DNA of 64,000 nt from a virus, in the IMG/VR virus record IMGVR_UViG_3300008113_005947, positions 11,326-75,325 of that record; one strand, 5' to 3'. The position numbers were made by a program, and so were the translations under genes. Position 1 is the first letter of the stretch; each line of letters begins with the position of its first letter. Below the pieces are notes generated by a model. That model was not told where the DNA came from, did not search any database, and worked only from the letters and a program-made list of their open reading frames with translations. Positions 1,866 through 41,400 of this stretch are shown piece after piece.

Positions 1866-1869
1866 CAGA

Positions 1870-1877
1870 TATTTATA
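1870..1877 (-). promoter_or_regulatory. T4-type late promoter TATAAATA
   Basis: Exact TATAAATA 4 nt upstream of the radical SAM ATG, in the divergent intergenic gap. Confidence 0.6.
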
Positions 1878-1893
1878 GACTAGACTTTAATCC

Positions 1894-1901
1894 ATTAAAT
1901 A
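1894..1901 (+). promoter_or_regulatory. Late-promoter-like ATTAAATA
   Basis: 5 nt upstream of the ATG at 1907; mirrors the minus-strand motif. Confidence 0.45.
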
Positions 1902-1906
1902 TCATT

Positions 1907-23059: not shown

Positions 23060-26000
23060 TTATATATTTTTTATGAAGCCACCGCCAGTGCCACCACTAC
23101 CCACTGTAGAAGGTGATGATACTACCGAAGAACCTATTTGTATTGGGCTAGACACATATACAGCATAACTATTTGTTCCGGATTGATGTAAATCGTTTCT
23201 TCCCCAGAAGTATAATGCATTGTTAGTATCAGTAATCAAACTGAATTCATTACCTGCACGAACTTGTGTCCAGCTACCGGAAGCTACTACTACTGGACTA
23301 CTATTTATTATTCCAGTTAAACCAGTATTCACTTGCACCGGGCTTGATTTATTTACAGTGGTATTATCACCCATCCCTCCGTATGTATTAAATCCCCAAA
23401 GCCATATTTGTGAGAATTTATCTATATAACCACCAACGTTGCCGCTTTGTGCTATACTAACAACATTACCTGATGCTGTTATTTGTACTGGACTACTGCG
23501 ATATATCGTAGTATTATCACCTAATTCTCCTTGAAGATTATAGCCCCATGCCCATAAGTTATTATTGATATCTATAGCAAATGCATTCTCTACATTAGTA
23601 CCTTTAGATACTACTTGTTTAAATAAACTTGAACTTGCTACTTGTACTGGACTACTTCTACGAACAGTATTGTTATCACCTACACCCCCGTTTTGACCAA
23701 GACCTGTAGCAAATATTTGTCCAGTAGCTCTTAAAAGATATATGTTATTGATGCTAGCTGCCACTTGTATATGCTTTTCAGTACCAATTTGATATGGACT
23801 ACTTCTATCAATAGTAGTGTTGTCTCCCAACTGACCGTAAATATTTCTACCCCAAGACCAGGCTATGTTATCAGTATCAAGTGCAACGGTGAAGCCACTA
23901 TCGCTAACTGCAACTTGCAACCAACGTTTACTTGCAAATACTTGTACTGGGCTACTGCGTGATATAATAGTGGCATCACCCAATTGACCAGCACTATTAT
24001 CACCCCATGCCCACAATGTATTATCTGGTTTAATTGCAAAAACAAAAGTTTGTACATAAGTCGCGGCACAGACTGATGCCCAAGAACCTGGTATTTGTAC
24101 AGGGCTACTTCTAGCAATTCTATCTCCCTGTACTAATTGTCCTGCGGCGTTTTGGCCCCAGGCCCATAATGTATAATTTGTTTTAATAGCATAAGTAGCG
24201 CCTGCTGTGGCGTAACTAGCGCAGTCAACTATAATCCAGCTTCCGCCACCGGATACCTGTACAGGACTACTACGTGTTATTGTAGTGTTATCTCCCAATA
24301 CTCCATAATTGTTATAGCCGGTAGCCCATAATGTTCCGTCGTTTCTAATTGCATGTCTGACATAGCCACCACCACCACTGCCGCCACTATATTGCCATCC
24401 TGCATTATTACCAGCACCAATACCAATTGGCATAGGATTTACTCCGGCTGAACTTCCCCATCCAAATAGTCTACTATCTCTAGTTATGCCTAATGTATGA
24501 CTATAACCAGCACTAACTTGTGACCAACTACTATTGCCTATTTGATTTATCCCTGCTATATAAGTTTGACTTAAGCCGCCAACAGTTATAGGTGTACTTG
24601 TTGTTGTCACCGTTGAGTTATCAGCTAATTGACCAAGACCGTCAGTTCCCCAGACATATAATAGACCATCAGTTTTCAGAGCCGTTACATAGGACGCTCC
24701 CACGCCCACCGTAATAAAACTTAAACCTATTGTAGTTCTAAGTTTGTTAGGATATATGAATGGATTTTGGCCTACAGTATTAATTTGTACTGGGCCAGCA
24801 ATTAATCCAGTAGTATTATTTCCTATATTACCTACTGGATTATTTCCCCATGCAAATAATAATCCATCACTTCTTATAGCACTTACATAAATTGCATCAT
24901 AATATGCAGTAGGCGTTCTACCTACAATTGGATAGGTATTATAGTTTGCAATTTTTGCGACTGATACTGCAATCCAGCTACTTGTTCCTATTTGCACAGG
25001 ACTACTGCGATATATTGTAGTATTATTACCTAATTGACCATTGGGGCCATTATTTCCCCAAGCCCATAATGTAAAATCTGCTTTAATAGCAAATGTTGTG
25101 CCACCACCAGTTGATACTGCAATCCAGCTACTTGTTCCTATTTGTACAGGACTAGAATAAAAAGCAAACGTATTTGCTGTATACACTGAATCAAGTTGAA
25201 CTGGGCTACTTTTTGACACAACCGTGTTATCTCCGAGTTGACCCGTAAGACCATTGCCCCATACAAACAATCTGTTAGTAGTACCATCATTCAATAGACC
25301 GATAGCAACACCATTATTACCAGTACCAGACCCGATAGATACCCAACTACTTGTACCTATTTGCACAGGACTACTACGTGTGATTGTAGTGCCATCACCT
25401 AGCTGACCAACATTACCAAGTCCCCAAGACCATATTGTACCAGTTGTTGTTCTAGCTATGTATGAGCCGGCGCTACTAAAAATTGATACAATTTGTGTAA
25501 AGGAATACCCGGACATAATTTGCACTGGACTACTACGATACAATAGATGATTTGAATCATCTCCAAATTCTCCATAATTATTCCATCCACCTATGTTGTA
25601 TAATTGTCCTAATGTATTAATTGCGGCTTTAGTATATACTGCTATTGCTACACTACTCCAATTATTATTAGAACCAATTTGCACAGGGCTACTACGTGAT
25701 ACGGTAGTACCATCGCCTAATTGACCATACGTGTTATCACCCCATGCCCACAATGTACCATCAGTTTTTATTGCGAGTACACCTTGCGTCCCGGCGCCTT
25801 GTCCACCTTGGGCGGCAGCAGTAGTCCAGCTACCTAAAATTTGTACTGGTCTACTACGTGATATAGTATCATTTTGACCCAATTGTCCGTATAAATTTTG
25901 ACCCCACGCCCACAATGTGTTGTCATCCATTATAGCTATCTGCATTGCTCCAGAATCTGCACCAACACTAAATATCTGCGTCCAACTTGTACCATTAGTA

Positions 26001-29000
26001 CCTATTTGCACAGGACTACTACGAGCGATAGTAGTACCATCACCAAATTGACCTACGTTACTATTTCTACCACCTATAGAAATTAAAAATCCCTTTGTAG
26101 TAATAGCAAATACTGCGATGCCGCCGTCATTGGTCGGAGTACCACTAGATGCTAAAACATACGATGTAGTAGCACTTAATTGTACAGGGCTACTACGATT
26201 TAATGTATCATTTAATCCAAGTGCTCCTGTCAGATTTCTGCCCCATACGTAAAGTAAATTGTTTCTTATAGCTGTAGAAATAGTACCGGCTACAGCATAA
26301 CTCCAAGTATCACTACCCATTTGTACTGGACTACTGCGGCTTATTGTTGTATTATCACCTAATTGCCCATATGAATTATTTCCCCATGTCCATACTGTAC
26401 CATCTGTTGCTAAAGCTAATGTATACTGGCCAGTACCAGATCCGTCTTGACTTCCCATTGTAGCCATAATCCAACTATTAGCCGTTCCTACTTGTACCGG
26501 GCTACTACGGCGTATTGTTGTATTAGTACCTAATTCTCCTTGAGTATTTTCTCCGCATACATATAACTTACCTAAAATGTCAATCATTCTAAAGCCTTCA
26601 CCGGCCGCTATAAAAGTAAAACTACTAGTAGTCATAATTTGAATCGGGCTTGATTTATTAACAAAGGTGTTATCACCCAGCTGTCCATTATTATTAAGTC
26701 CCCATACAAATAATTGACCTAATTTGTTTATAGCTGCCATACCACCTAAACTATTGCCACCAGATACAGCAAGTTTTGACCAAATTGCTAATGCACCTAT
26801 TTGTACAGGGCTACTACGATTTACTGTAGTGCCATCACCTACTTGCCCAAATGAATTGCTTCCCCAACCCCATAAGGTGCCATCTATTCGTATGGCATGG
26901 GCGCAGCCTGCGGCAGCACTAATCACAAGCCAACTACTAGTACCTACTTGTACTGGGCTACTACGTGATATAATATCATTTTGACCTAGCTGGAGACCTG
27001 CTCCCCAGGCCCAAATACTACCATCATACCTTAATCCCATAGTAAGTGCGTTACCTGCAGATATATCTTTCCATATGTTAGGATTTAAAATTTGTACTGG
27101 TTGACTGCGATTTATAGTTGTACCATCACCTAATTGACCCTGGTTATTATAACCCCATGACCATAAATTATATGAAGTATCAATAGCTAGTTTATGCCCA
27201 GTACTAGTGTAATTTGTAGATGCTAATTGTAACCAACTACCACCCACTTGTACAGGATTACTTCTGTTAATAGTATCATTCTGACCTAATTGTCCGTATA
27301 CATTACCACCCCATACATATAATTGTTTTGTTGAGTTAAGAATGTACCCGCCGGAATTGTAGTCACGCAAAGTATCACCGGCAACTATACCTAAGCTACC
27401 AAAATAATTGCTTCCCCAACCCCATAATGTACCGTCTGGTTTAATACCAAAACTATTTCTAGCTCCAGCTGAAATCACACTCCAACTACTTGTGCCTATT
27501 TGCGTTGGACTGCTTATTAAATTATTTGATGTAGCGGCTATTACAGTAAAATCAAAATCCACTGCAACAGGCCATGATTGATTAGTGGTGATTCCTATTA
27601 CACCTACTGGTGGATTGCCCCATGCAAATAATTGTCCATCTGGTGCAATAGCATGAGATTTTAAATATCCTGCACTAACATATGACCATTCATTTCCACC
27701 AACACCTACATAAAAATTATTTGCAGCCACTCCACCAATAGTTGAAACTTGTACAGGGCTACTGCGATTAGATAATGATGAGTCACCTAGTTGACCACTA
27801 GTGTTTAATCCCCAAGCCCATAATGTATTATCTGCACGTATTGCTACATTATGTGATAACCCTGCAGATATCATTTTCCATGAAGGTAGCATTATCAAAG
27901 TACCAACTTGTACTGGACTACTACGGCTAATTGTGGTATTATCACCCAGTTGACCTACAGCATTAATACCCCAAGTCCATATTGTGTTGTCTTGTCTGAG
28001 TGCCATTGTGTGAGAGCCACCTACGGATATCTGAGTCCAACTACTTGTACCTATTTGTATTGGACTGCTACGATTTAATGTATCGCCAAAGCCAAGTTGA
28101 CCCACTGCATTATTTCCCCAAGTCCATAATCTACCTACAGTGTCAATAGCACCTACGTGCAATGCTCCAGTAGTAATTAATGTATTTGTTCCTATGCTTG
28201 TAGGTAAGACTGTAAAGCTAAACCCTGTAAGAATCTGTACGGGACTACTACGATTAATTGTAGTGTTATCTCCTAACTGTCCATTGGCATTATATCCCCA
28301 TGCATATAGTTGACCTGATGTATTAATTGCGTATGTTGTCGCTCCCGCAATGACTCTAAACCAATTAGCTAATGCACCTATTTGTACTGGGCTTGATTTT
28401 GAATTAACCGTATTGTCACCTAAACCACCTACATTATTGTATCCCCAACCCCATAGTGTACCATCTGTTCTGATACCTAGCATGTTGCTATGACCTATAG
28501 TCACTGATGTCCAGCTACCTGCTAGTTGTACAGGGCTACTACGATTTATCGTGTCACCAAAGCCTAATTGACCTGCAGTATTAAGACCCCAAACAAACAA
28601 TCTACGTGAAGAAGTAATTGCGTACCCTACGCCATCTGCTGAGTTAGTACCAGTCTCAACGTATATTTCAGGTGCAGTATTATTGCCTAACTGACTTGTA
28701 GTATTTTCTCCCCAACCATATAATAGACCTTGGGTATTCAATGCAAAGGCATGATAATTTCCTGCAATTACTTGATTGAAACTGGTTGTATTATTAATTT
28801 TATTAGGTACTGCTGTGTACAAAATAGATGATGTACCTATTTGTACAGGACTACTTCTTGTGATTGTAGTACCATCACCAAGTTGGCCGTTAGAATTAAT
28901 CCCAAACGCATCAAGCATGTAATTTGATTTTAACGCTAACCCAAAAGTTGAGCCAAAAGTAAATGTACCTATCTGAGTATAACTTGATGCCCAACGTAGT

Positions 29001-32000
29001 TGTGTTGGACTTGATTTACTAACTGTAGTATTATCACCCAACTGCCCGTATGTATTAACTCCCCAGGCGTATAATAAACCAGATGCATCTATTATCCATG
29101 TCGCTTGTTCGTTATTACATGCTATTGCTAACAAAGGCATATTATATGGGAATAAGCTACTTGATAAACTAGCACTTCCGACTTGTACAGGGCTACTACG
29201 GTCTACTGAAGTACCATCACTAAAACTATAATTATTATTACGACCCCAAGCCCACACAGAACTATTAGTTCTTATACCTATCATGTTTGTAGTAGCCCAT
29301 ACACTAGTCCAACTACCTGTAATTTGAGTTGGATTACTTCGATTCAATGTATCATTAACACCCAATGATCCAACACTATTATTTCCCCATGCATACAATG
29401 TACCAATGGTTGTTATAGCTGCCATTTGATTTACACCCAATGACATTTGATTTAATGCTAAACCACCTGCTACCTGTACAGGACTACTTCTACTTACAGT
29501 ACTGTTATCACCTAACTGACCACTATCATTAGCACCCATAGCCCATATTACATTTCCCGTTGTGCCTGCTGCCTTGAAATTGTTACTATATGTATAGTTA
29601 GGTAAGAAACTCCAAGTTGTTAATAATCCTACTTGTGTGGGAGCACTTCTATTAGCCGTATCTCCCAATCCCAATGATCCTGTGCTATTGTTGCCCCAAG
29701 TATATAATGTTCCTGTACTAGTAACAGCAATGCCATGACCTATTTGTGTCCAACTGACACTAGGAGAAGTAATTTGTACCGGATTACTTTTGTTTATTGT
29801 GGTATTATCACCTATTGCGCCCGAACTATTATCACCCCAAATATATAAATTATTAGTGCTAGTTGTTAATGCAAATGCAGTTGATCCGTTAGTTCTTACA
29901 ACTTTAGTCCAAGTATTCAATGTACCAACTTGTACTGGGCTACTTCTATCAATCGTATCATTTAATCCAAGTTGTCCAAGATTATTTCTACCCCAAGCCC
30001 ATAATGTTCCAGTTGTTGAACCTACAATCATTTTAATTGCTAATGTCCAATCGGTGCCTCCACCTACCTGTGCCCATGAACTACCACCAACTTGTACAGG
30101 GCTACTACGTGATATGGTTGTTCCATCACCGAATTGACCTGAATTATTATTTCCCCATGCCCATAATGTATAATCATTTTTAATAGCGTAAGTATAATTA
30201 TTGGCTGATTTAACACTTATCCAACTTGAAGCACTACCATCGAATGTAGGCAATTGTGTGGGACTATAAGCAATAGTAGCATCAGTACCAGCTAAGACTA
30301 CAGGACTACTCTTATTAACAGTAGTGGTGTCACCAAGTAGGCCTGTGCTATTTACACCCCATACATAAGCTAATCCGCTAGCTGATGGCCAGAAACAACC
30401 AAATGTATATCTAGTCCAAGTTGTATAATCTCTAAATCTTACTCCGCCCAACAATGTTATTGTGTTAGATGTTGTTGCAACTCCTGTCCAATTGGCTGCG
30501 CCACTCATACTACCCCAGTAGTATAAGAAATTATTTTGAGACAATGCAAATGCACCATAGTACCAGCCGTATACAGCTTTCCATGATGTTGTAATAGATG
30601 ATCCTATTTGTACAGGGCTTGACGCATCAGTTGAAGTATCATCACCAATATATCCACCGGTTGCACCTTGATTATTTCTGCCCCATCCCCACATAGTGCC
30701 ATCAGTTTTAATACCGTACATATTAAAGTTGCCAGTATTGCCAGCACCATTCATACTTACCATAGTCCAACTACCTGCAATTTGCACTGGACTACTACGT
30801 GATATAGTACTATTATCTCCTAATTGACCATACGTGTTAACACCCCATGTCCATAACGTACTATCAGTTTTAATTGCGGCTACTTGATTGCTTGCAGGAT
30901 TAGTATATAATGCTAACCAAGTTGTATCACTACCTATTTGTACAGGGCTTGATTTACTAACATTAGTGTTATCACCTATTACACCATCAGTATTAACTCC
31001 CCAGCCCCATAGTTGACCTAGCGAATTTATAGCGTGTGCACCGGCATACCAACCGTCTGTGTTTGTCCAATTAGTTTTAACACCTATTTGTACAGGACTA
31101 CTACGTGATATAGTAGTTCCGTCACCTAACGTTCCACCTGTAGCATTTCCCCAACCCCATAATGTTCCATCGACTCTGATAGCATGAATATGATTTACAC
31201 CTATACTTACTTGTGTCCATAAAGAACTTCCTATTTGTATTGGACTTGATTTACTAACGGTAGTGTTATCACCTAACTCACCTGAACTATTGTCCCCCAC
31301 TGCCCACAATGTTAAATTGCCTTTAATCCATTGTGTAAATCCTTTTGTAAATGTGTTAGTATCAAATCCACCTTTGCTAGCAATACTTTGATAATCAGCA
31401 CCTTGCAATAATCCTAAAGAACCACTAGAAGCTGTTCCCCATGTAAACAATCTACTATTACTATCAATTGCAAACATATTATTATTGCCAGCAGACACAG
31501 TAGACCAATTGCTATTTCCTAGTTGAGTAGGACTCATTATCATCTTTCTAGGTCCACTAGCTACTAATGTAGGCACGCTTTTACTAACAGCAGTATTATC
31601 ACCTAATTCGCCACTTGTGCCCAAGCCCATAGAATACAATAATGAATCTTTGATAAACATTATAGTAGTTTGTGTTAAGAAATTACTATAATTATTAGAA
31701 AGTAAGAAAGTTCCACCTGAACCCATAGATGTTATTTGTACAGGACTACTACGTGATGTAGTAGTACCATCACCTAACTGACCACTAGTGTTTAATCCCC
31801 AAGCCCACAGTGTATTATCGGTACTACGCACAGCTAGGATACTTTGAGAATATACTCCAATTTGTGAAAAACTATTACCTGTTCCTATTTGTATCGGACT
31901 ACTCTTGTTAACTGTAGTACTATCACCTATCATACCGTCATTATTATATCCAGTACCCCATAATGTTCCATCAGTTTTTAATAGGTATGTAGTATATCCC

Positions 32001-35000
32001 TCATTTGACCCTATTGCGGTATAACTTCCTGCAAGTTGTATAGGACTACTCTTATTGACAATTGTTCCGTCACCCAATTGACCAGCACTATTGCCTCCCC
32101 ATGTATATACTGTGCCGTCAGTTCTTAATCCAACTGAATGACTCAGGCCTAAAGAAATCTGACTCCAGCTACCTGAAATTTGTACAGGGCTACTACGACT
32201 AATCGTATCACCTAGACCTAGTTGTCCTAAATTATTATATCCCCAAGTCCATAATGTAGCATCATCTTTTATGACCATAGTACGGAATTGTGATGTAGCA
32301 ACTTGTGTAAAACTAGAACCTGCAAATATTTGTTGAATCTCATGTGCTGTGTTTACCCCAACCTGAGTCCAACTACTTTGTGTTGCGGCATTCCCTAAAC
32401 CAAGTTCAGATGTTGCATTATAACCAGCCGCATATAATTTATTGTCAGTAAGTGTCATTGTAGTACCACTTAATCCACCAAGTGATACTTTTTGCACGTT
32501 AGTTCTCATTTGTGCAGGATATCCTCTTGACACAGTTGTACCATCTCCATACTGAGACCAGGTATTATTTCCTACCATCCATAATGAATTATCTGCTCTT
32601 ATTAATGCTACATAACTAGAACCAGCAGATGTAACTTGTATCCAACTACTAGTACCTACCTGTACAGGGCTACTACGTGAAGCATCAATACCAACTTGTG
32701 TTGGGCCACTTCTATTCGTATTAGTTGTACTACCTAAAAGTGCCCCAATACCCCATAGTTCTAATGCATATTGGTCTCCCCATAAAATAGCATTAGCCTG
32801 TCCGACACCATATTTGTGAGGTAGGGTAATAGCATTCAATTGAGTAAATGATGTAGGATATATTGCAGACATTTGTACTGGACTGCTACGTGAAATAATA
32901 GTATTATCACCTACTTGACCCCAAATATTCCATCCCCATGCCCAAAGAGTATTATCTATTCTCAATGCACTAACTAAGAATTGACCAGTTTGCACTTGAC
33001 TCCAACTACTTGTTCCCACTTGTGAAGGACTGCTACGATTTAGTGTATCACCAAACCCCAACTGCCCTACGTTATTAATACCCCAAGTATATAATCTACC
33101 TAGATTATCTATAGCCACACTACTATCCCATGCGGTACCTATAGCTACATATGATACTGAAGATGTTATTTGTACTGGACTACTTCTATTAATAGTAGTG
33201 CCATCACCCAACTGACCACTAGTGTTTAATCCCCATGCCCATAGTTTAGAGTTACTATCAAGAGCCACAAAAAAACTTTGACCTGCATGAACATCTATCC
33301 AACTATTACCTATACCTATTTGCACAGGTTGACTACGTGTTACCGTATCACCAAAACCCAATTGTCCTACGTTATTTCTACCACTAGTAAATAAATTAAA
33401 GGCGGTATTTATATATGCGGCTTCAGTGTTTCCTATGGCTGCTCTGCGATAATTACCGCCTCCGCCAATGTTAACAGGACTGGATCTAGATATAGTTTCA
33501 TTAGTTCCAAACTGTCCATACTGATTGTTTCCCCAACCCCATAATGAAGTATCACTACGTATGGCAGCTACAGCACTTCCACCGGCAGCAATAAAAGTAT
33601 AACTTGCACCAGTATGAATTTGTATAGGTGACAAACGTTGTACAGTTAAACCATCACCTAACACTCCTGACTCATTGGTGCCCCAAGAATATAATCTTCC
33701 TAACCTATCGGCAGCTATTGCTGAGTTACCTAAAGTAAATGCTATAGTGTTCCATGCTATACCTGATGCAATTGTTGGCGCGGCACTTGTAGCCGCGCTA
33801 GTGCTTACGCCTGCACCCCATGTAAATAATTTATAATCAGTATTGATAGCAAAAACGTTTTGTGTAGCACCAGAGCCACCAATAAATAACCAGCTACCTG
33901 CAATTTGTACTGGACTACTTCTTGTGATTGTGGTGCTATCCCCTAATTGACCTAATGAATTCATACCCCAAGCCCATAGTGTATTATCACTACGGATAGC
34001 TAATGTAGTATTATTATTTCCGTCAGTAGTCGCTACAAGTACAACTGAGCTCCACTTGTATGCACCAAGTTGTACCGGACTACTACGATTAATTGTACTT
34101 CCGTCACCCAGTTGACCATTATTGTTTAATCCCCAAGAAAACAAATATCCATCTTTTCTAATTGCTAAGGTGGTATTTGCGCCTAGTGTTACTTGAGTCC
34201 AACTACTTGTTCCTATTCTAGTAATCCAACTTTTATTAACAGTAGTGCCATCACCGATTTGTCCGCTAGCGTTATAACCCCAAACAAATAATGTGCCGTT
34301 ACTATTAATTGCAGCCATGTGGAAGGCACCGGGCATGGCAGTTGCAATAGAATTCCAATTAGTAAAGAATAGACTATTAGTAGGTCTAAAACTTAAAGTA
34401 TTATCATATGTAACAACTGTTGGGCTTGCTTGTGGTGTCGCCGTAGTACCTATACCCATTTGTCCAAAACTATTATTACCCCATGCAAACAATACCCCAT
34501 CATTACGTAATGCATATGTACTCTGATATCCTACAGTTACGCTAGTCCAAGAATAAGTTTGTTCAGGTATTGTATAATAATTTTCACCACTACTATTATT
34601 AGTATTAGATGTTCCCCATGCAAACAATTTACCAGTATTTGTTATAGCATATGTTCCCCTAGTACTTGCCGCAACTTTAGAAAATTTAAGGTCAGTGTTT
34701 ATCGCTAATCCTACTTGTGTGGGGCTAGAAACACTAGCTATAACAGGATCATATATATTTCCACCATATCTTAATTGGTTAAGTAATTGGGCCCAAGTCC
34801 AAAGAGTGCCGTCTGAATCAATAGCATATTGTCCATTATTTGCCGAGTAACCGATGCCACCACTAAAAATCCATGATAGAGGATTATATGTACCTAGTTG
34901 GCCACCTACATTCGACCCCCAAGTATATAATTTATTATTTCTTATACCTATGCCTGAATTCGAATGCACACTAATCATAGTCCAAGAACTATTAGAAACT

Positions 35001-38000
35001 TGTACTGGTGTGAAATTTTTTCTATATATTAATGGGTACCCAGATTGTCCATAATCAGTGGTTGCCCACGCCCAATTAAATAATGTTCCGTCATTTTTTA
35101 TTAAAGTTATCCAATTTGGTGAGCTGAATGCATATCCTGTCACATCTATAAAACTACCAGACAAAGCAGTAAGTTGCACTGGGCTACTACGTGATATAGT
35201 AGTGCCATCTCCTAATTGATTAAGTGAGCTTCCACTAGCACCCCATGACCATACAGTACCATTAGTTTGTAAACCTATAGTTACAGTTCCTATAGGAACT
35301 ACTTTACTCCATGTATACTGGGCTCCTATTTGTACTGGACTGCTACGTGATATAGTATCATTTAGTCCTAATTCTTTAGCACCCCATGCATATAATTCAC
35401 CAGCTGAATTAATTGCTGTTGCAAAACTCATACCTGCACTTATAGCAGACCACGATTGATTTACTGTTTGAGTTATTTGTACAGGACTACTACGAGGGAA
35501 TCCATCACCATATCCTAATTGTCCTGAACTATTTTGTCCCCATGCAAATAAACTTCCGAATGGATCTATAGCTAATGCAAAATTTTCTCCGGCTGCAACT
35601 GATGTCCAATAACTAGTACCTATTTGTACTGGACTACTACGTTGTATTGTAGTACTATCACCTAATTGTCCGTACCAATTATCTCCACCAACACCCCATA
35701 ATGTACCGTCTAGACGTATTTGATATTGAGTAAGACCTCCGCCTGTTGCTAATTGTATCCAGCTATGTGTACCGTTAATGCCCGATTCGGCTGTAGCAAG
35801 AGTTCTAAATCCGGCTATTATCCAAAGTGATCCGTCAGTTTGTATTCCGAAATTAGCTCCAAAGGTAGAGGAATCATTGCTTGCAATAGCAATACTTTGC
35901 CAATTAGATGCACCAATTTGTACAGGACTACTCCTACTTACAAAAGTTCCGTCTCCTAAGTAACCAGCTGATGATCCCCATGCAAATAATTTATTGTCTG
36001 ACCGTATTGCAAAAACTGACCCTGCAATTGAGTTTGGACCTGTTGCTCCAAACACACTTTTCCAACTATTATTACCTACTTGGGTTAGTGTGTTCCTATT
36101 TACTGTATCATTTAAACCTAATTGACCATAAGTATTGGGCCCTGCACTAAATAAAATACCATCATATCTTATTGCATAGATGTTAGCGGGGCCGCAACCT
36201 ATTTGAATCCAACTATCATTTGAAATTTGTACTGGGCTACTACGATTGATAGTACTTCCGTCACCTAAATTTCCACCTCCATTCCATCCCCATGCAAAAA
36301 GAAAACCTGTATTAGCTTCTAAAGCAATTACATGTAATGAGCCGGTATCTACTTTACTAAATGTTCTGCTAGATGCAATTTGAACTGGACTACTACGGTT
36401 AGCTATACTATTATCACCTACAGAACCATAAAAATTATATCCCCATGCATACAATCTACCTGCTGAATCTAAAGCAACAGTAAAGTTTTGGCTATTTCTT
36501 ACAAAACTCCAATTATTATTAGTACCAATCTGTATAGGACTACTACGAGTTATAGTGGTTCCGTCACCTAACTGACCTTCAAAATTTCTACCCCAGCCCC
36601 ACAATGTACCGTTTGTTTTGATAGCCATTAAATGAGATTCACCCGCCGATATAACAGACCATGATGCTATATCTGTTATATTATTTCTTGCAAGTTGACC
36701 AAATTGATTATTACCACTAGAAAATAATAATCCATTAATATCTATTCCTAATGAAAAATTATTTCCCGCGGATACAACATTCCAACTACTTGTCCCAACT
36801 TGTAATGGGCTATTTGTTGATGTTACCGTGTTTAAGAACAATTGACCCTGATTATTATTCCCCCAAGCCCATAATGTTTTATCACTGCGAATTGCTAACG
36901 TATGATTAGTACCTGCACTTATTGCTGTCCAACTACTTGTTCCAAGTTGTGTTGGACTATTAAACAATAATGTTCCACCTACTTGTACCGGGCTAGACCT
37001 AGTTGAACCTGCAGTAACTAGACCCGAAATAATATAATTATCGCCCTGACCACTGTCACCTCCCCAGGCCCATAAATTGTAAGAGGTATCAAGTGCCATC
37101 ATACCGCGTTGGGTGTTAACTAACTGAAGCCAATTTGAAGTTCCGAGTACTTGAGTAGGATTTGATTTATTAATAGTAGTACCATCACCTAGTTGACCAA
37201 AAGTCGAATTAAGTCCCCATCCTATTACTTTTCCTGAACTATCAATAGCAGAATGATGACTTTGTGTAGATTTTACTGCTACGCTAGAAACACCATTAGC
37301 TATTTGTACAGGATCACTTCTTGAAATTACTGTTCCATCACCTACTGTGCCTATAATATTAGTGCCCCAACCATATAATGTACGATTGGTATTTAAAGCA
37401 TAAGAATTATTTAAGCCAGCACCAACACCACTCCAATTAGATAAAAATCCTAACTGTACAGGGGTGCTACGACTTATAATGTTACCGTGACCTAATTCAC
37501 CATTAAGATTGTAACCATGTGACCACAATGTTCTATCATTTCTTATTGCTAATGTGAATTCAAGACCTAATGCAACATCATTAAATTTGACACTTACTGA
37601 AACTTGTACAGGGCTACTTCTAGCAATAAGAGTGTTGTCTCCAATTTGACCAGCACTGTTTGACCCCCACATAAAAAGATTACTGTTTACGTCAATTGCC
37701 GCTGTAGTTCCCTGTCCCAAACTAGTGTTTCCGGGATTGGCTCTTACTAATGTCCAACTACTTGATCCTACTTGAACTGGACTTGACTTACTAACAGTAG
37801 TATTGTCCCCTAGTTGTCCTTGTGCATTATAACCCCAACTGAATAATCTACCATTTATATCTATTGCAAAGGAAGTGCTAGGACCGGCAGCTATGAAAGA
37901 CCAACTGCTATTTCCTATTTGCACTGGGCTAATACTATTACTAACATCACCTTTACCCAACTGACCTGTAGTATTTTCACCCACAGCCCATAAAGTGTTG

Positions 38001-38413
38001 TCTTGTCTTAGTAGTAATGTATGAGTCCATCCAGTAGCTATAGATTTCCATCCAGCATAATTAAATATACCACCTAAACCTAATTGATTAGATGTGTTAC
38101 TACCCCAAACATACATTAAATTGTCACTACGTAATGCAAGACTATGACTAGCACCAGCATTAATATTATTCCAACTATATCCTAAACCAATCTGTACAGG
38201 ACTACTACGTGTGAGATATGTACCATCACCCAACTGTCCTGAAGAATTCAAACCCCATGCATATAGCAAGTTGTTACTTTTTATAGCCAAAGCATGAGAA
38301 CCACCTACACTAAGCTGTTTCCAGCTGGTGCCTATTTGTATAGGGCTTAACGAATATTGAGTAGTGTAACCGGCAACCTGTGTTAAACTTGAACGGTTTG
38401 TATTAATACTCAT
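23060..38413 (-). CDS. Giant RCC1/BLIP-II-repeat beta-propeller protein, part 3 (5117 aa, about 96 repeats)
   Basis: About 50-aa repeat SWxxVSAGxxHxxAIxxDGTLWxWGxNxxGQLGDxTxxxRSSPVQI; ATGA overlap with the upstream gene. Confidence 0.92.
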   Translation of the reverse strand: MSINTNRSSLTQVAGYTTQYSLSPIQIGTSWKQLSVGGSHALAIKSNNLLYAWGLNSSGQLGDGTYLTRSSPVQIGLGYSWNNINAGASHSLALRSDNLMYVWGSNTSNQLGLGGIFNYAGWKSIATGWTHTLLLRQDNTLWAVGENTTGQLGKGDVSNSISPVQIGNSSWSFIAAGPSTSFAIDINGRLFSWGYNAQGQLGDNTTVSKSSPVQVGSSSWTLVRANPGNTSLGQGTTAAIDVNSNLFMWGSNSAGQIGDNTLIARSSPVQVSVSVKFNDVALGLEFTLAIRNDRTLWSHGYNLNGELGHGNIISRSTPVQLGFLSNWSGVGAGLNNSYALNTNRTLYGWGTNIIGTVGDGTVISRSDPVQIANGVSSVAVKSTQSHHSAIDSSGKVIGWGLNSTFGQLGDGTTINKSNPTQVLGTSNWLQLVNTQRGMMALDTSYNLWAWGGDSGQGDNYIISGLVTAGSTRSSPVQVGGTLLFNSPTQLGTSSWTAISAGTNHTLAIRSDKTLWAWGNNNQGQLFLNTVTSTNSPLQVGTSSWNVVSAGNNFSLGIDINGLLFSSGNNQFGQLARNNITDIASWSVISAGESHLMAIKTNGTLWGWGRNFEGQLGDGTTITRSSPIQIGTNNNWSFVRNSQNFTVALDSAGRLYAWGYNFYGSVGDNSIANRSSPVQIASSRTFSKVDTGSLHVIALEANTGFLFAWGWNGGGNLGDGSTINRSSPVQISNDSWIQIGCGPANIYAIRYDGILFSAGPNTYGQLGLNDTVNRNTLTQVGNNSWKSVFGATGPNSIAGSVFAIRSDNKLFAWGSSAGYLGDGTFVSRSSPVQIGASNWQSIAIASNDSSTFGANFGIQTDGSLWIIAGFRTLATAESGINGTHSWIQLATGGGLTQYQIRLDGTLWGVGGDNWYGQLGDSTTIQRSSPVQIGTSYWTSVAAGENFALAIDPFGSLFAWGQNSSGQLGYGDGFPRSSPVQITQTVNQSWSAISAGMSFATAINSAGELYAWGAKELGLNDTISRSSPVQIGAQYTWSKVVPIGTVTIGLQTNGTVWSWGASGSSLNQLGDGTTISRSSPVQLTALSGSFIDVTGYAFSSPNWITLIKNDGTLFNWAWATTDYGQSGYPLIYRKNFTPVQVSNSSWTMISVHSNSGIGIRNNKLYTWGSNVGGQLGTYNPLSWIFSGGIGYSANNGQYAIDSDGTLWTWAQLLNQLRYGGNIYDPVIASVSSPTQVGLAINTDLKFSKVAASTRGTYAITNTGKLFAWGTSNTNNSSGENYYTIPEQTYSWTSVTVGYQSTYALRNDGVLFAWGNNSFGQMGIGTTATPQASPTVVTYDNTLSFRPTNSLFFTNWNSIATAMPGAFHMAAINSNGTLFVWGYNASGQIGDGTTVNKSWITRIGTSSWTQVTLGANTTLAIRKDGYLFSWGLNNNGQLGDGSTINRSSPVQLGAYKWSSVVLVATTDGNNNTTLAIRSDNTLWAWGMNSLGQLGDSTTITRSSPVQIAGSWLFIGGSGATQNVFAINTDYKLFTWGAGVSTSAATSAAPTIASGIAWNTIAFTLGNSAIAADRLGRLYSWGTNESGVLGDGLTVQRLSPIQIHTGASYTFIAAGGSAVAAIRSDTSLWGWGNNQYGQFGTNETISRSSPVNIGGGGNYRRAAIGNTEAAYINTAFNLFTSGRNNVGQLGFGDTVTRSQPVQIGIGNSWIDVHAGQSFFVALDSNSKLWAWGLNTSGQLGDGTTINRSSPVQITSSVSYVAIGTAWDSSVAIDNLGRLYTWGINNVGQLGFGDTLNRSSPSQVGTSSWSQVQTGQFLVSALRIDNTLWAWGWNIWGQVGDNTIISRSSPVQMSAIYPTSFTQLNAITLPHKYGVGQANAILWGDQYALELWGIGALLGSTTNTNRSGPTQVGIDASRSSPVQVGTSSWIQVTSAGSSYVALIRADNSLWMVGNNTWSQYGDGTTVSRGYPAQMRTNVQKVSLGGLSGTTMTLTDNKLYAAGYNATSELGLGNAATQSSWTQVGVNTAHEIQQIFAGSSFTQVATSQFRTMVIKDDATLWTWGYNNLGQLGLGDTISRSSPVQISGSWSQISLGLSHSVGLRTDGTVYTWGGNSAGQLGDGTIVNKSSPIQLAGSYTAIGSNEGYTTYLLKTDGTLWGTGYNNDGMIGDSTTVNKSSPIQIGTGNSFSQIGVYSQSILAVRSTDNTLWAWGLNTSGQLGDGTTTSRSSPVQITSMGSGGTFLLSNNYSNFLTQTTIMFIKDSLLYSMGLGTSGELGDNTAVSKSVPTLVASGPRKMIMSPTQLGNSNWSTVSAGNNNMFAIDSNSRLFTWGTASSGSLGLLQGADYQSIASKGGFDTNTFTKGFTQWIKGNLTLWAVGDNSSGELGDNTTVSKSSPIQIGSSLWTQVSIGVNHIHAIRVDGTLWGWGNATGGTLGDGTTISRSSPVQIGVKTNWTNTDGWYAGAHAINSLGQLWGWGVNTDGVIGDNTNVSKSSPVQIGSDTTWLALYTNPASNQVAAIKTDSTLWTWGVNTYGQLGDNSTISRSSPVQIAGSWTMVSMNGAGNTGNFNMYGIKTDGTMWGWGRNNQGATGGYIGDDTSTDASSPVQIGSSITTSWKAVYGWYYGAFALSQNNFLYYWGSMSGAANWTGVATTSNTITLLGGVRFRDYTTWTRYTFGCFWPSASGLAYVWGVNSTGLLGDTTTVNKSSPVVLAGTDATIAYSPTQLPTFDGSASSWISVKSANNYTYAIKNDYTLWAWGNNNSGQFGDGTTISRSSPVQVGGSSWAQVGGGTDWTLAIKMIVGSTTGTLWAWGRNNLGQLGLNDTIDRSSPVQVGTLNTWTKVVRTNGSTAFALTTSTNNLYIWGDNSSGAIGDNTTINKSNPVQITSPSVSWTQIGHGIAVTSTGTLYTWGNNSTGSLGLGDTANRSAPTQVGLLTTWSFLPNYTYSNNFKAAGTTGNVIWAMGANDSGQLGDNSTVSRSSPVQVAGGLALNQMSLGVNQMAAITTIGTLYAWGNNSVGSLGVNDTLNRSNPTQITGSWTSVWATTNMIGIRTNSSVWAWGRNNNYSFSDGTSVDRSSPVQVGSASLSSSLFPYNMPLLAIACNNEQATWIIDASGLLYAWGVNTYGQLGDNTTVSKSSPTQLRWASSYTQIGTFTFGSTFGLALKSNYMLDAFGINSNGQLGDGTTITRSSPVQIGTSSILYTAVPNKINNTTSFNQVIAGNYHAFALNTQGLLYGWGENTTSQLGNNTAPEIYVETGTNSADGVGYAITSSRRLFVWGLNTAGQLGFGDTINRSSPVQLAGSWTSVTIGHSNMLGIRTDGTLWGWGYNNVGGLGDNTVNSKSSPVQIGALANWFRVIAGATTYAINTSGQLYAWGYNANGQLGDNTTINRSSPVQILTGFSFTVLPTSIGTNTLITTGALHVGAIDTVGRLWTWGNNAVGQLGFGDTLNRSSPIQIGTSSWTQISVGGSHTMALRQDNTIWTWGINAVGQLGDNTTISRSSPVQVGTLIMLPSWKMISAGLSHNVAIRADNTLWAWGLNTSGQLGDSSLSNRSSPVQVSTIGGVAANNFYVGVGGNEWSYVSAGYLKSHAIAPDGQLFAWGNPPVGVIGITTNQSWPVAVDFDFTVIAATSNNLISSPTQIGTSSWSVISAGARNSFGIKPDGTLWGWGSNYFGSLGIVAGDTLRDYNSGGYILNSTKQLYVWGGNVYGQLGQNDTINRSNPVQVGGSWLQLASTNYTSTGHKLAIDTSYNLWSWGYNNQGQLGDGTTINRSQPVQILNPNIWKDISAGNALTMGLRYDGSIWAWGAGLQLGQNDIISRSSPVQVGTSSWLVISAAAGCAHAIRIDGTLWGWGSNSFGQVGDGTTVNRSSPVQIGALAIWSKLAVSGGNSLGGMAAINKLGQLFVWGLNNNGQLGDNTFVNKSSPIQIMTTSSFTFIAAGEGFRMIDILGKLYVCGENTQGELGTNTTIRRSSPVQVGTANSWIMATMGSQDGSGTGQYTLALATDGTVWTWGNNSYGQLGDNTTISRSSPVQMGSDTWSYAVAGTISTAIRNNLLYVWGRNLTGALGLNDTLNRSSPVQLSATTSYVLASSGTPTNDGGIAVFAITTKGFLISIGGRNSNVGQFGDGTTIARSSPVQIGTNGTSWTQIFSVGADSGAMQIAIMDDNTLWAWGQNLYGQLGQNDTISRSRPVQILGSWTTAAAQGGQGAGTQGVLAIKTDGTLWAWGDNTYGQLGDGTTVSRSSPVQIGSNNNWSSVAIAVYTKAAINTLGQLYNIGGWNNYGEFGDDSNHLLYRSSPVQIMSGYSFTQIVSIFSSAGSYIARTTTGTIWSWGLGNVGQLGDGTTITRSSPVQIGTSSWVSIGSGTGNNGVAIGLLNDGTTNRLFVWGNGLTGQLGDNTVVSKSSPVQLDSVYTANTFAFYSSPVQIGTSSWIAVSTGGGTTFAIKADFTLWAWGNNGPNGQLGNNTTIYRSSPVQIGTSSWIAVSVAKIANYNTYPIVGRTPTAYYDAIYVSAIRSDGLLFAWGNNPVGNIGNNTTGLIAGPVQINTVGQNPFIYPNKLRTTIGLSFITVGVGASYVTALKTDGLLYVWGTDGLGQLADNSTVTTTSTPITVGGLSQTYIAGINQIGNSSWSQVSAGYSHTLGITRDSRLFGWGSSAGVNPMPIGIGAGNNAGWQYSGGSGGGGYVRHAIRNDGTLWATGYNNYGVLGDNTTITRSSPVQVSGGGSWIIVDCASYATAGATYAIKTNYTLWAWGQNAAGQLVQGDRIARSSPVQIPGSWASVCAATYVQTFVFAIKPDNTLWAWGDNSAGQLGDATIISRSSPVQVFASKRWLQVAVSDSGFTVALDTDNIAWSWGRNIYGQLGDNTTIDRSSPYQIGTEKHIQVAASINNIYLLRATGQIFATGLGQNGGVGDNNTVRRSSPVQVASSSLFKQVVSKGTNVENAFAIDINNNLWAWGYNLQGELGDNTTIYRSSPVQITASGNVVSIAQSGNVGGYIDKFSQIWLWGFNTYGGMGDNTTVNKSSPVQVNTGLTGIINSSPVVVASGSWTQVRAGNEFSLITDTNNALYFWGRNDLHQSGTNSYAVYVSSPIQIGSSVVSSPSTVGSGGTGGGFIKNI

Positions 38414-41400
38414 GTACCGTCCCCCAGTTGTCCATTGCTGTTGTTACCAAATGTATATACTGAACCATCAGATTTTTCTATTATGTTATGATTGTATCCA
38501 GCACTTATTAGTGTATAACTAGAACTACTAATTTGCACTGGACTACTTCTATTTATCGTAGAAGAATCGCCGACTTGTCCATTTACATTGTAACCCCAAG
38601 CAAATAACAATCCTGAGGAATTTTTTGCTAAACTATGATTTTCTCCTGAACTTACACTACTCCAACTATCTGTACCTATCTGTACGGGACTACTTCTATA
38701 ATAATTACCATAATCAACTGATCCAATTTGTACTGGACTGCTTGCGTTGGCTGCGGCAACAAATGACATACCGGCTAATTTATACTGTACACCGTATGTA
38801 TTTGTATTGTTTTGTCCCAATTGACCGGTAGTATTTAATCCTGATGCTACCATCTTATAACCTAATACAGGATCATTAGACATAACTGCTGTTATATGTG
38901 AACCACCTGATGCTAGTAGGGTAAAGTTATATGTGCTTAATTGTACTGGACTAATTCTATCCGTAGTACTTCCATCTGATAATATTGAACTTGAACCACC
39001 ATTGGATCCCCATGCAAACAAGCTATTATTAGATAAGATACCATATGCAAAAGAATAACCTGCAGATACAGTACTCCAATTACTGTTACCTACCTGTGTA
39101 GGACTACTTCTATTTTGAAGTAAAGAAATTTGTACTGAGTTTATTGATCCTAGTTGTACTGGACTGCTACGATTTACGTTTTGATTATCACCTAATGAAA
39201 CCCATCCAGCTGAGTTGAAACCCCATGACCAAACTAGTTCTTGATTTTGTGCTGTAGCGCCTGATATCGTTGTTGTAGCAAAGGTACTATCATATCCTAA
39301 AGATAATTTACTCCAAATAATTAAAGGTAAGTTGCCAACCCATGATGAAATTATTTGCACAGGACTACTACGTGATACAGTTGTAAAATCTCCTAGTTGT
39401 CCTTCATTATTACGACCCCACATCCACAGTACACCACTTGTTGATATAGCACCTGAATGTGAACTTCCTGCAGAAATAACAGACCAGCTACCTGCAATTT
39501 GTACCGGGCTACTACGTGATATAGTAGTATTATCTCCCAATTGGCCAGTACTATTACTTCCCCATGACCATAGTGTATTATCAGTTTTCAATCCTAATGC
39601 ATGTGTTGTTGGGGTGACAAATCCTGTAAAGTTAGAAGCATTTATCTGAGTCCAACTACCTGGTATTTGACTAGGTGTATATTCAATATATCCTGTTGAC
39701 AATTGTACTGGACTACTTTTGTTAATAACGGTATTATCTCCTAATTGACCAACACTATTTGATCCTACTGTAAATATTGACCCTGATGAATTTCTAAATG
39801 CGGCATATGAACTTCTCACCGATACAATAGTATTGTTAGTTGAAGAACCTACTTGTCTTGGTTGGAATTGGGTGCGGCTGGCCAGTGCAAAGTTATTTCC
39901 TGTTTGACCAACATTATTACTTCCCCATGACCATAATGTACCATCTGTCTTAACAGCAAATTGATTGTTCACACTAAAATTGTCATTACCGAAACCTACT
40001 TGTGTCCATGAACCTGCAATTTGTACTGGAATAGGTTGAAACATAGATAACGATAAAACGCCGGACCACACTGCACCTGTGATTGACTTATTAGTAAGAG
40101 TTAAATCACCTAATTGACCTGTTGTGTTAAGTCCCCAAGCCCACATTTTTCCAGTTGGTTCGTTTGAAACTAGTATATAGTTTCTTTCAAAACCACTGAA
40201 CAGTTGTATAAATGAGGCGCTGTTGGCAGTATTTAAACTAAGTAGCTGTACAGGGCTACTACGACTAACTGTTGATGAATCACCTACTTGACCACTATTA
40301 TTTCTACCCCAAGCAAATACTAGATAGTCTGTCCTTACTGCTGTAGTAGAACGGTCTGTAGTTGCCAATGTAATCCAACTAGCGTCAGTTCTCACTTGTA
40401 CTGGACTACTACGATGCACTGTGTCATTAAGTACTCCTAATTCTCCGTTGTTGTTAGCACCCCATGCAAATAATTGTCCTAATGTATTTAAATATGCAAA
40501 TCCATTAGCATACGGACGCATTTGTGATACGTTTGCAAAACCTGATGTAACTTGTACCGGGCTACTACGATTCACGGTAGTATTTGATGCAAGCTGTCCA
40601 AGACTATTACTACCCCAAGTCCAATATGTACCATCGTTTTTCAATGCCATACTCATTGCGGCACCGCCCCAGATATTTGTCCAGGTACCTGCAAGTTGCA
40701 CTGGACTACTTCTACTGGCAGTAGAACTATCACCTAACTGACCGTTACTATTAATTCCCCATGCCCATAATGTACCATCTGTCTTAATAGCTAACATATG
40801 AAAGTTTGACCTGCCTGTCATAAGAACAGACCAACTACCGGCTATTTGAGTTGGGCTACTACGTGATATAGTATCACTTTGACCTAATTGACCATCGGTA
40901 TTACTACCCCATGCCCATAATGTAGCGTCATCTTTTATACCAAAAGATGCACTGTTTGGTGCGTTTGTATTAGCACCTGCAACTAGGGTCCATCTTCTTA
41001 CTCCACCTGCTGTAAGTACAATAGGACTAGATTTAGTAACTATGGTGTTATCTCCTAATGCACCAGCAGTACCTAATCCATACATGTATAATGTATTATC
41101 CCCCCTTAGAGCCATAGTATGACTATCTGAACCGGCTATTTGTGTGAAGCTATAAGTAATTCCCAATGCCTGATATTCGTTATATCCCCATACCCATAAT
41201 GTACTATCTGATTTAATTGCCGCACTACTGTACTGTCCTGCAGTGACTTGTGTAAAACTAGAACCAACTTCTAATTGAATTGGTCTAGGAGCCCACAATC
41301 TATAAACAACATTGTTACTAATAGTGAAGGGATATAATGTTGTGCTACCCAGATAATAATTACCTGCCGCAGATACCTGTACCGGGCTACTACGATTTAT

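What the first reader, a model, noticed from the sequence alone, without database searches (positions are those of the whole stretch)
23060..23125. C-terminus of gene 3 supplies the half-blade missing from the N-terminus of gene 1, 34 kb away
Seen: gene 1's first repeat starts at NLFMWG (about 57530) without the preceding xxVSAGxxHxxAIK strands. Gene 3 ends, after root blade 7, with that kind of half-repeat (STVGSGGTGGGFIKNI*). Established: RCC1 propellers close by a 'velcro' blade made from N- and C-terminal halves. Inference: here the velcro closure is intermolecular and locks the whole tree.
Basis: partly seen in the sequence, partly recalled or inferred. Interest (0 to 1): 0.8.

Follow-up and report, generated by a model that had tools for sequence, protein, structure and literature searches.

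The report
Split closing blade of a phage propeller-tree
The last 22 residues of the third giant RCC1-repeat gene of this phage are a conserved half-blade that fits the lone first strand of the first gene, so the root propeller of a three-chain, roughly 30-propeller protein is probably closed between chains. Physical pairing of the strands was not shown.

Summary
Gene 1 (47727-57587, minus strand) begins with a 17-residue leader and then directly a blade C strand (NLFMWG). Gene 3 (23060-38413) ends 22 residues after its last D strand. In the window alone this tail is not significantly repeat-like. Five distinct homologous tails show it is an A strand plus a B strand that stops at the B-C turn.

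My own bracket parse supports nested seven-bladed propellers, in the window and in two homologous phage loci. The root propeller has six full blades in gene 3 plus one split blade.

- Strands A and B come from the gene 3 C-terminus.
- Strand C comes from the gene 1 N-terminus.

Single-gene relatives carry the same leader-plus-C start and A-B end in one chain. The gene junctions are conserved coupling overlaps, so the closure is most likely between chains.

Strand pairing was not shown: the complex prediction gave no verdict. The closest precedents are the RCC1 velcro and the Sec13-Sec16 mixed blade.

Earlier notes of this scan on this same genome already described the nesting and the gene splits. 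I retested both here.

The parts
23063..23128 (-). Gene 3 C-terminal tail, residues 5096-5117. It is a half-blade: an A strand plus a B strand ending at the B-C turn. Proposed strands A and B of the split root blade.
   Evidence: The phase and motif are conserved in five distinct homologous tails.
23060..23062 (-). Stop codon of gene 3.
23129..23275 (-). Root blade 7: the last complete blade of gene 3, residues 5047-5095.
23276..23302 (-). Orphan D strand (SSPVVVASG) that closes root blade 6 after an inserted seven-blade propeller.
   Evidence: The same pattern (open blade, 7 blades, double D) is seen in all six homolog lineages.
24419..24532 (-). Root blade 6, strands A-C only (an open blade), gene 3 residues 4628-4665.
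24536..24559 (-). Orphan D strand (IAGINQIG) assigned to root blade 5.
   Evidence: The orphan D is clear in the homologs.
36677..36790 (-). Root blade 5, strands A-C only (open), gene 3 residues 542-579.
36788..36937 (-). Root blade 4, complete, gene 3 residues 493-542.
36938..36961 (-). Orphan D strand (NSPTQLGT) that closes root blade 3 after seven inserted blades.
38060..38176 (-). Root blade 3, strands A-C only (open), gene 3 residues 80-118.
38177..38326 (-). Root blade 2, complete, gene 3 residues 30-79.
38327..38359 (-). Second D strand at the gene 3 N-terminus (QYSLSPIQIGT). Proposed strand D of the split root blade, closing the open first blade of gene 1.
   Evidence: It is conserved in G001 and L015.
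38369..38401 (-). First D strand at the gene 3 N-terminus (TNRSSLTQVAG). It completes the D-less last blade of gene 2.
38413..38523 (-). Last blade of gene 2, strands A-C only. The gene ends in the C-D loop at an ATGA overlap with gene 3.
57489..57536 (-). Gene 1 residues 18-33: a lone C strand plus the GQIG loop. Proposed strand C of the split root blade.
57465..57488 (-). An 8-residue linker (ATSPQYYS) running straight into the next A strand. This is an 'open' junction, not a D strand.
   Evidence: The homologs have no SP motif here.
57537..57587 (-). Gene 1 leader, residues 1-17. It is a conserved hydrophobic N-terminal motif, modelled as a helix at low confidence in a relative.
57587..58156 (-). 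Phage tail assembly chaperone gene, coupled to gene 1 by a TAATG overlap.
47727..57587 (-). Gene 1, 3286 aa: RCC1 repeats plus two LamG-like inserts.
38410..47727 (-). Gene 2, 3105 aa: RCC1 repeats.
23060..38413 (-). Gene 3, 5117 aa: RCC1 repeats. It holds six of the seven root blades.

Best explanation
The three giant genes encode one nested tree of seven-bladed RCC1-type propellers, cut into three chains at surface loops.

The root propeller has six ordinary blades, all in gene 3. Its seventh blade is made from three separated pieces.
- Strands A and B are the last 22 residues of gene 3.
- Strand C is gene 1 residues about 18-25.
- Strand D is the second D strand at the start of gene 3.

Everything else in genes 1 and 2 hangs in the C-D loop of this blade. 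In a single-chain relative this would be the ordinary RCC1 'velcro' closure between the N-terminus and the C-terminus.

Here the genes are separate, so the closing blade is a 3+1 mixed blade. The first strand of gene 1 is clamped between the two ends of gene 3.

Shown: the sequence grammar and its conservation. Inferred: that the strands pair in the assembled protein, and that this ties the chains together.
For: 1. Termini. Gene 1 starts at the C strand of the repeat profile. The gene 3 tail follows a D strand and ends at the B-C turn.

2. Conservation. Four distinct first-gene N-termini share the pattern leader + LYMWG...GQLG + an 8-10 residue linker + [YF][YF]SW, with no D strand. Six last-gene tails share the A-B pattern.

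3. Grammar. I treated D-less blades as open brackets and extra D strands as close brackets.
- Every closed group in the window holds 7, 14 or 21 blades.
- In every parse that satisfies this rule, gene 1's first blade is open. It has exactly 7 children: g1-2, g1-3, g1-4, g1-12, g1-13, g2-57 and g2-58. It is closed by the second N-terminal D strand of gene 3.
- Genes 1 and 2 together have 113 C strands, which is 1 + 16x7.
- The homologous system G001 parses the same way: 92 = 1 + 13x7 blades, and 7 children.
- The last gene in L015 has root blades 1, 2, 3, 4, 40 and 48, which with the split blade makes 7.
- None of about 1.2 million random valid bracketings of that gene gave all six groups a multiple of 7.

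4. Cis relatives.
- P0005, P0006, P0007 and P0009 start with leader + C strand and end with A-B.
- Their C-strand counts are 42, 42, 28 and about 28. The last is 25 found by the profile plus 3 inferred from long gaps.
- P0052 (743 aa) is a one-chain miniature: leader, open C strand, 7 blades, double D, 6 blades, A-B tail.

5. AlphaFold2 model of P0052 (mean pLDDT 80.5).
- Residues 40-391 form a complete propeller. It matches UVR8 at Z 52.8, rmsd 1.6, 347 residues aligned.
- Six further blades follow.
- The tail forms two strands (728-733 and 737-742) at pLDDT above 80.
- Residues 21-25 are modelled as a strand.

6. Separate genes. The gene 2/3 type junction ACATGAGT, with GGRGA 8-13 nt upstream, is conserved in the window, G001, L015 and L021. 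L015 and L021 have no G-run at this junction.

7. Precedent. Sec16 gives three strands and Sec13 gives one strand of a closing blade in trans (PMC2922654).
Against: No tool result shows the strands in contact.

The tail of the window alone is not significantly repeat-like. It is Gly-rich and 3-5 residues longer than the homologous tails.

In the model of the isolated gene 3 C-terminal fragment, the tail is coil with pLDDT below 50. All root-level parts of that fragment were equally poor, because their partner blades were missing.

In the P0052 model, the orphan D region (residues 390-405) is low-confidence coil, the C strand reaches only pLDDT 50-70, and I could not read coordinates.

My count of gene 3 is one blade short: 96 found against 97 needed. 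One inner group has 20 members instead of 21.

The 17-residue leader of gene 1 has no assigned place.

Token calls for degenerate blades were partly manual.
Confidence: 0.6

Rival explanations
1. The half-blade and the lone C strand are evolutionary leftovers of a once single gene. They no longer pair. The root ring stays open, or closes with a three-strand or defective blade. The gene 1 N-terminus (leader plus strand) does something else, such as docking to the virion or to the chaperone.
For: The window's tail is degenerate and Gly-rich, and is not significantly repeat-like. The tail is coil in the fragment model. The conserved leader has no role in the propeller model. One blade is unaccounted for in gene 3.
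Against: The phase, length and motif of the tail are conserved across six lineages that are only 36-45% identical over the last 500 residues. The first-gene start is conserved across four lineages. A useless remnant would be expected to drift in length or be lost. The root level counts exactly 6 + 1 in three systems.
Confidence: 0.2
2. The three reading frames are joined during translation (by a frameshift at the overlaps), or the splits are assembly errors. There would then be one polypeptide of about 11,500 residues, and the closure would be the ordinary intramolecular RCC1 velcro.
For: The gene 2/3 junction needs only a -1 shift. It lies 6 codons after a G5 run in the window. The reading continues in phase with the repeat. 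G001 has genes 1 and 2 as one 4821-aa gene.
Against: The gene 2/3 type junction ACATGAGT is conserved in four loci together with an SD-like GGRGA. L015 and L021 have no G-run there. The -1 frame is open for only 10 codons upstream. At the gene 1/2 junction neither frame encodes a joining segment, and the second frame has a stop 3 codons before its ATG. The chaperone/gene 1 junction uses the same TAATG overlap.
Confidence: 0.08
3. The tail is an extra ('orphan') D strand like the other double-D sites (SSPIQIG ... SSPSTVG). It closes some open blade rather than supplying strands A and B.
For: In the window the tail reads SSPSTVG nine residues after SSPIQIG, like the other close sites. The best short-window profile offset for this piece is at the D strand.
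Against: None of the five distinct homologous tails has the SP motif. They read as A strands. No bracket parse of the window accepts a closing D at this position. Cis relatives end in unmistakable A-B strands.
Confidence: 0.03
4. There is no nesting. The genes encode plain tandem propellers, each closed locally, so the N-terminal strand pairs with an A-B pair seven blades downstream and the tail pairs with a C-D pair seven blades upstream.
For: Some 14-blade relatives (P0017, P0089, P0005) show no open or close signatures and could be tandem.
Against: The window has many D-less blades and matching extra D strands, with 7, 14 or 21 blades between them. Chance does not produce this pattern. In the P0052 model, residues 40-391 form a complete propeller that excludes the preceding C strand.
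Confidence: 0.04

Closest known systems
RCC1-like domain propellers (RCC1, UVR8, HERC2 RLD3, RPGR RLD, RCC2)
   Same: Same repeat family: the Pfam RCC1, RCC1_2 and RLD models hit far above their cut-offs. Seven blades per propeller. A relative's propeller matches UVR8 at Z 52.8. The chain starts with the C strand and ends with strands A and B. From my own knowledge of the human RCC1 sequence, it also begins at a C strand and ends ...VSSGGQHTVLLVK.
   Different: Known members are single propellers closed within one chain. Here the two halves of the closing blade lie on the first and the last of three chains, 34 kb apart. The C-D loop of that blade carries about 16 further propellers.
Sec13 completed in trans by Sec16, Sec31 or Nup145C (insertion blade)
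   Same: An open propeller is closed by strands from another chain. In Sec13-Sec16 the closing blade is a 3+1 mix: three strands from Sec16 and the outermost from Sec13 (PMC2922654). That is the same strand arithmetic as proposed here.
   Different: That is a WD40-type propeller from eukaryotic coat and pore proteins, with no sequence relation. The donated unit is a contiguous blade from a helical partner. Here the single donated strand is the inner-middle C strand, and both partners are propeller arrays from one split gene.
Single-chain nested relatives found here (P0052 743 aa, P0063, P0007 1512 aa, P0006 2683 aa)
   Same: Same leader, same open first blade, same A-B end. C-strand counts are multiples of seven.
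   Different: They are encoded by one gene, so closure is within the chain.

Membership tests
RCC1-like domain (RLD) propeller | Repeats match the RCC1 / RLD profile models above the curated cut-offs. | tested here: met
   Gene 1 scores PF25390 1601.8 bits, PF00415 1083 bits and PF13540 751 bits. There are 150 PF00415 matches over the three genes.
RCC1-like domain (RLD) propeller | Seven four-stranded blades per propeller. | tested here: met
   Bracketed groups hold 7, 14 or 21 blades in the window, G001 and L015. The relative P0052, residues 40-391, aligns to UVR8 at Z 52.8, rmsd 1.6, 347 residues. One inner group of gene 3 counts 20 instead of 21.
RCC1-like domain (RLD) propeller | Velcro closure: the N-terminal C(-D) strands and the C-terminal A-B strands form one blade. 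| tested here: inconclusive
   The phases of both termini fit and are conserved. Strand pairing was not observed. The model of the cis relative has both elements as strands, but coordinates were not readable.
Trans-completed propeller (Sec13-Sec16/Sec31/Nup145C type) | One chain lacks strands of a blade, and another chain carries exactly those strands. | tested here: met
   This was tested at the sequence level only. Gene 3 has A, B and D. Gene 1 has the lone C.
Trans-completed propeller (Sec13-Sec16/Sec31/Nup145C type) | The two chains bind through that blade. | not testable with these tools
   This needs a structure, cross-linking or co-purification.
Trans-completed propeller (Sec13-Sec16/Sec31/Nup145C type) | WD40-type Sec13/Seh1 propeller with an ACE1 partner (homology). 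| tested here: not met
   The repeats are RCC1 type. The resemblance is in mechanism only, not in family.
Phage tail-fibre module protein | Encoded beside tail-fibre and virion structural genes and a tail assembly chaperone. | tested here: met
   PF16778 Phage_tail_APC lies directly upstream and overlaps gene 1. The 1075-aa neighbour matches cyanophage virion structural proteins at 44% identity.
Phage tail-fibre module protein | Presence in the virion. | not tested
   No proteomic data were available.

The most novel reading that the evidence does not exclude
About 11,500 residues on three chains fold into one topologically closed object of 30 nested propellers. Its root ring can close only when the first strand of the first chain is clamped between the two ends of the last chain. 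Root closure would then be the final lock, and a built-in check that all three chains have assembled. The coupled upstream tail-assembly chaperone possibly assists.
Probability: 0.4. Interest if true: 0.8.

Novelty: new variant of a known kind. Interest (0 to 1): 0.6.

Why it matters
If the pairing is real, it extends propeller velcro closure from a within-chain stabiliser to a between-chain lock, in a protein assembly of exceptional size and topology.

It gives a concrete handle on how such a tree folds. The single strand at gene 1 residues 18-25 and the 22-residue tail are small, deletable elements, and their removal should break the assembly.

It also shows that a nested propeller protein tolerates being cut at surface loops. 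The cut between genes 1 and 2 is present here and absent in a close relative. That is of interest for the evolution of split genes and for the design of strand-complemented propellers.

Tried and rejected
1. Four-chain complex prediction of the root pieces (gene 1 residues 1-41, and gene 3 residues 16-114, 481-579 and 4614-5117, each with an alignment). It returned no verdict (score 0.02 against a mark of 0.32), and the controls were not run. It counts neither for nor against binding.

2. AlphaFold2 of gene 3 residues 4614-5117 with 7 sequences. Mean pLDDT was 58. Only the inserted propeller was reasonably modelled. The root parts and the tail were below 50, so it is uninformative about the tail.

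3. Ungapped profile scoring of the tails. No tail was individually significant.

4. My first idea, that the tail is an orphan D strand. I dropped it after comparing the homologs and after the parse.

5. The first bracket search found no solution until the gene 2/gene 3 split blade was allowed zero children.

6. Solutions that treated gene 3 blade 85 as complete gave a six-blade root. I rejected them because all homologs show blade 85 clearly open, and show two real orphan D strands just before it.

7. I could not find the one missing blade of gene 3.

8. A megablast of 6 kb against the phage collection found nothing.

10. The structure search of the P0052 model listed only the inserted propeller. 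It says nothing about the root ring.

11. Model coordinates are not exposed to scripts.

12. Literature searches for nested or inserted propellers, and for RCC1 in phage fibres, found no description of this arrangement. The library is incomplete.
Full report
**Setting**

The window lies in a 75-kb IMG/VR virus record that CheckV estimates as 21% complete. Its neighbours are ribonucleotide reductase genes and proteins most similar to cyanomyovirus virion structural proteins.

Four genes follow one another on the minus strand, joined by coupling overlaps.
- A tail assembly chaperone (PF16778), 57587-58156.
- Gene 1, 47727-57587, 3286 aa.
- Gene 2, 38410-47727, 3105 aa.
- Gene 3, 23060-38413, 5117 aa.
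- The overlaps are TAATG, TAATG and ATGA.

The three giant genes are almost entirely RCC1 repeats. Gene 1 also carries two LamG-like inserts.

**The observation**

The stretch 23063-23128 encodes the last 22 residues of gene 3.

I built a 50-position profile of the local repeat from 28 canonical units. Its strand order is A (SWTxISAG), B (xTLAIKSDG), C (TLWAWG plus the NxxGQLG loop) and D (RSSPVQIG).

On gene 1 the first match begins at residue 18, at profile position 19. That is the C strand. A 17-residue leader with no likeness to strands A or B precedes it.

The tail of gene 3 follows its last D strand and got no profile hit at all. Ungapped scoring of the tail against the profile is not significant (p 0.35-0.8). 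In the window the tail reads SSPSTVG, which looks like the extra D strands found elsewhere in these genes.

**Homologs decide it**

Searching with the downstream 592-aa gene gave ten loci. Eight of them carry the end of the last giant gene. Those ends are five distinct tails besides the window's own.

- None has the SP motif.
- All read as an A strand (for example QVVIAG, NLIDAG, TGAG) followed by G-[YF]-[IL]-[KQP]-N.
- They stop 17-19 residues after the last D strand (22 in the window), at the position of the B-C turn.
- The best profile offset is at positions 1-4 for five of the six tails.

Searching with the chaperone gave loci with three further first-gene starts. All have a hydrophobic leader, then LYMWG...GQLG, then an 8-10 residue linker ending [YF][YF]SW, with no D strand. 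Both halves of the complementarity are therefore conserved. The window's SPQYY and SSPSTVG motifs are coincidences.

**Why the two ends belong to the same blade**

Many blades in these genes stop after the GQLG loop and run straight into a new A strand. Elsewhere a complete blade is followed by a second D strand.

An earlier first-reader note of this scan, on this same genome, proposed reading these as brackets around inserted propellers. I tested that idea myself.

With blades called from profile anchors, and 28 doubtful tokens left free, I made an exhaustive search. It required every closed group to hold a multiple of seven blades, and it found eight parses. All eight agree on genes 1 and 2.
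- The first blade of gene 1 is open.
- It has exactly seven children: gene 1 blades 2, 3, 4, 12 and 13, and gene 2 blades 57 and 58.
- The last child is completed by the first D strand of gene 3.
- The open blade itself is closed by the second D strand of gene 3 (residues about 19-29).

Genes 1 and 2 together have 113 C strands, which is 1 + 16x7.

The homologous system G001 has only two giant genes, of 4821 and 5123 aa. It parses cleanly in the same way: 92 = 1 + 13x7 blades, seven children, and a double D strand at the start of the last gene.

For the root level in gene 3, the unconstrained search preferred a six-blade root. The homologs show that this is wrong. The blade I one search is plainly open in all of them. 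It is followed by seven blades, a double D, one last blade and the tail. Two clear orphan D strands precede it.

With that correction the root holds gene 3 blades 1, 2, 10, 11, 85 and 93 plus the split blade. G001 is identical. In L015 the root holds blades 1, 2, 3, 4, 40 and 48 plus the split blade.

Random valid bracketings of the L015 gene never gave all six groups a multiple of seven, in about 1.2 million trials.

One defect remains. I count 96 blades in gene 3 where 97 are needed, and one inner group has 20 members. Either one degenerate blade escapes my profile or one propeller is irregular.

**Composition of the closing blade**

- Strands A and B come from the gene 3 C-terminus (23063-23128).
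- Strand C comes from the gene 1 N-terminus (57489-57536).
- Strand D comes from the gene 3 N-terminus (38327-38359).

**Relatives with everything in one chain**

I searched the large protein collection with the last 87 residues of gene 3 and then with one of the hits.

- P0005 (2225 aa) and P0006 (2683 aa) each have 42 C strands. P0007 (1512 aa) has 28 and P0009 (1415 aa) about 28.
- All four begin with the same kind of leader plus a C strand, and end in clear A-B strands.
- P0007 parses as four propellers nested one inside the other.
- P0052 (743 aa) is a miniature of the window's plan: leader, open C strand, seven blades, double D, six blades, A-B tail.

AlphaFold2 on P0052 with 28 aligned relatives gave mean pLDDT 80.5.
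- Residues 40-391 form a complete propeller, matching UVR8 at Z 52.8, rmsd 1.6, 347 residues aligned.
- Six four-stranded blades follow.
- The tail forms two strands at pLDDT above 80.
- Residues 21-25 form a strand at pLDDT 50-70.
- The leader is a low-confidence helix.
- The orphan D region is low-confidence coil.

I could not read coordinates, so the pairing itself was not seen. The family plan is nevertheless clear. The start and the end of the chain are the two halves of one blade, as in RCC1.

**Are the genes really separate?**

The gene 2/3 type junction is conserved as ACATGAGT, with GGRGA 8-13 nt upstream, in the window, G001, L015 and L021. L015 and L021 have no G-run that could slip.

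At the gene 1/2 junction neither frame encodes a joining piece. That cut is absent in G001, so cuts come and go in this family.

This favours separate, translationally coupled chains. It implies that assembly between chains is tolerated. A fused product is not excluded without protein data.

**What was not achieved**

- The four-chain complex prediction gave no verdict.
- The fragment model of the gene 3 end was too poor at the root parts to say anything about the tail.

**Comparison with what is known**

Velcro closure by N- and C-terminal strands is the rule in propellers (PMC3797127). Closure in trans is known for Sec13, whose seventh blade has three strands from Sec16 and one from Sec13 (PMC2922654).

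The present case works like these but differs in three ways.
- It is an RCC1-type propeller.
- The partners are the first and last products of a split gene.
- The loop of the closing blade carries more than half of a 30-propeller tree.

Literature searches found no description of such an arrangement.

**Verdict**

- My confidence that the mixed blade forms between chains is 0.6.
- It is a new variant of a known kind of closure, and it depends on the nested architecture reported separately for this genome.

Noticed in passing
window 57537-57587 (gene 1 residues 1-17); also L009, L011, L013 and P0004-P0009, P0012, P0017, P0022, P0052, P0063, P0130: A short hydrophobic N-terminal leader, roughly M-x-L-[LI]-x-x-L-L, precedes the first C strand in many RCC1 giants and 14-blade relatives. 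AlphaFold2 draws it as a helix (residues 3-12 of P0052) at low confidence. Its role is unknown; docking, a channel plug or chaperone recognition are possibilities.
   Followed up: partly
G001 = IMGVR_UViG_3300047560_002167, loci L025/L026, contig 15474-45304: The closest complete homologous system has two giant genes (4821 and 5123 aa) instead of three. The gene 1/2 cut of the window is absent there, while the gene 2/3 cut is conserved to the nucleotide (ACATGAGT).
   Followed up: yes
window about 24560-35900 (gene 3 residues about 840-4613): One inner bracket group counts 20 blades instead of 21, and gene 3 totals 96 blades instead of 97. Either one blade is too degenerate for my profile or one propeller is irregular. 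A candidate region is around residues 2615-2685, where there is a blade with no recognisable D strand.
   Followed up: partly
window about 41260-41365 (gene 2 residues about 2121-2155): About 27 extra residues (the segment between NYYLGS and VVYRLW) lie between a blade's own D strand and the closing D strand RPIQLEVG. The segment looks like three short strands and does not fit the blade count.
   Followed up: no
window about 51830-53590 (gene 1 residues 1333-1920): There are two LamG-like (PF13385) inserts of about 270 residues each. One lies between two blades. The other seems to sit between the A and B strands of a blade. L019, L020 and G001 carry similar inserts at other positions.
   Followed up: no
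window 38413-38436 and the matching junctions in L025, L015, L021: A purine-rich GGRGA lies 8-13 nt before the ATG of the last giant gene. It is built from the Gly-Asp codons of the GQLGD motif, so the repeat's own codons double as a ribosome-binding site.
   Followed up: partly
window 61934-63998: Tail-fibre-like genes repeat the motifs NAQPNITSLGTL and NLNADLLDGYDT. One copy is partly duplicated at the window edge.
   Followed up: no
window 19912-23002: A 592-aa gene with a methyltransferase domain and two further small genes start 57 bp after gene 3. The 592-aa gene is 78-88% identical in ten related loci and always follows the last giant gene.
   Followed up: partly
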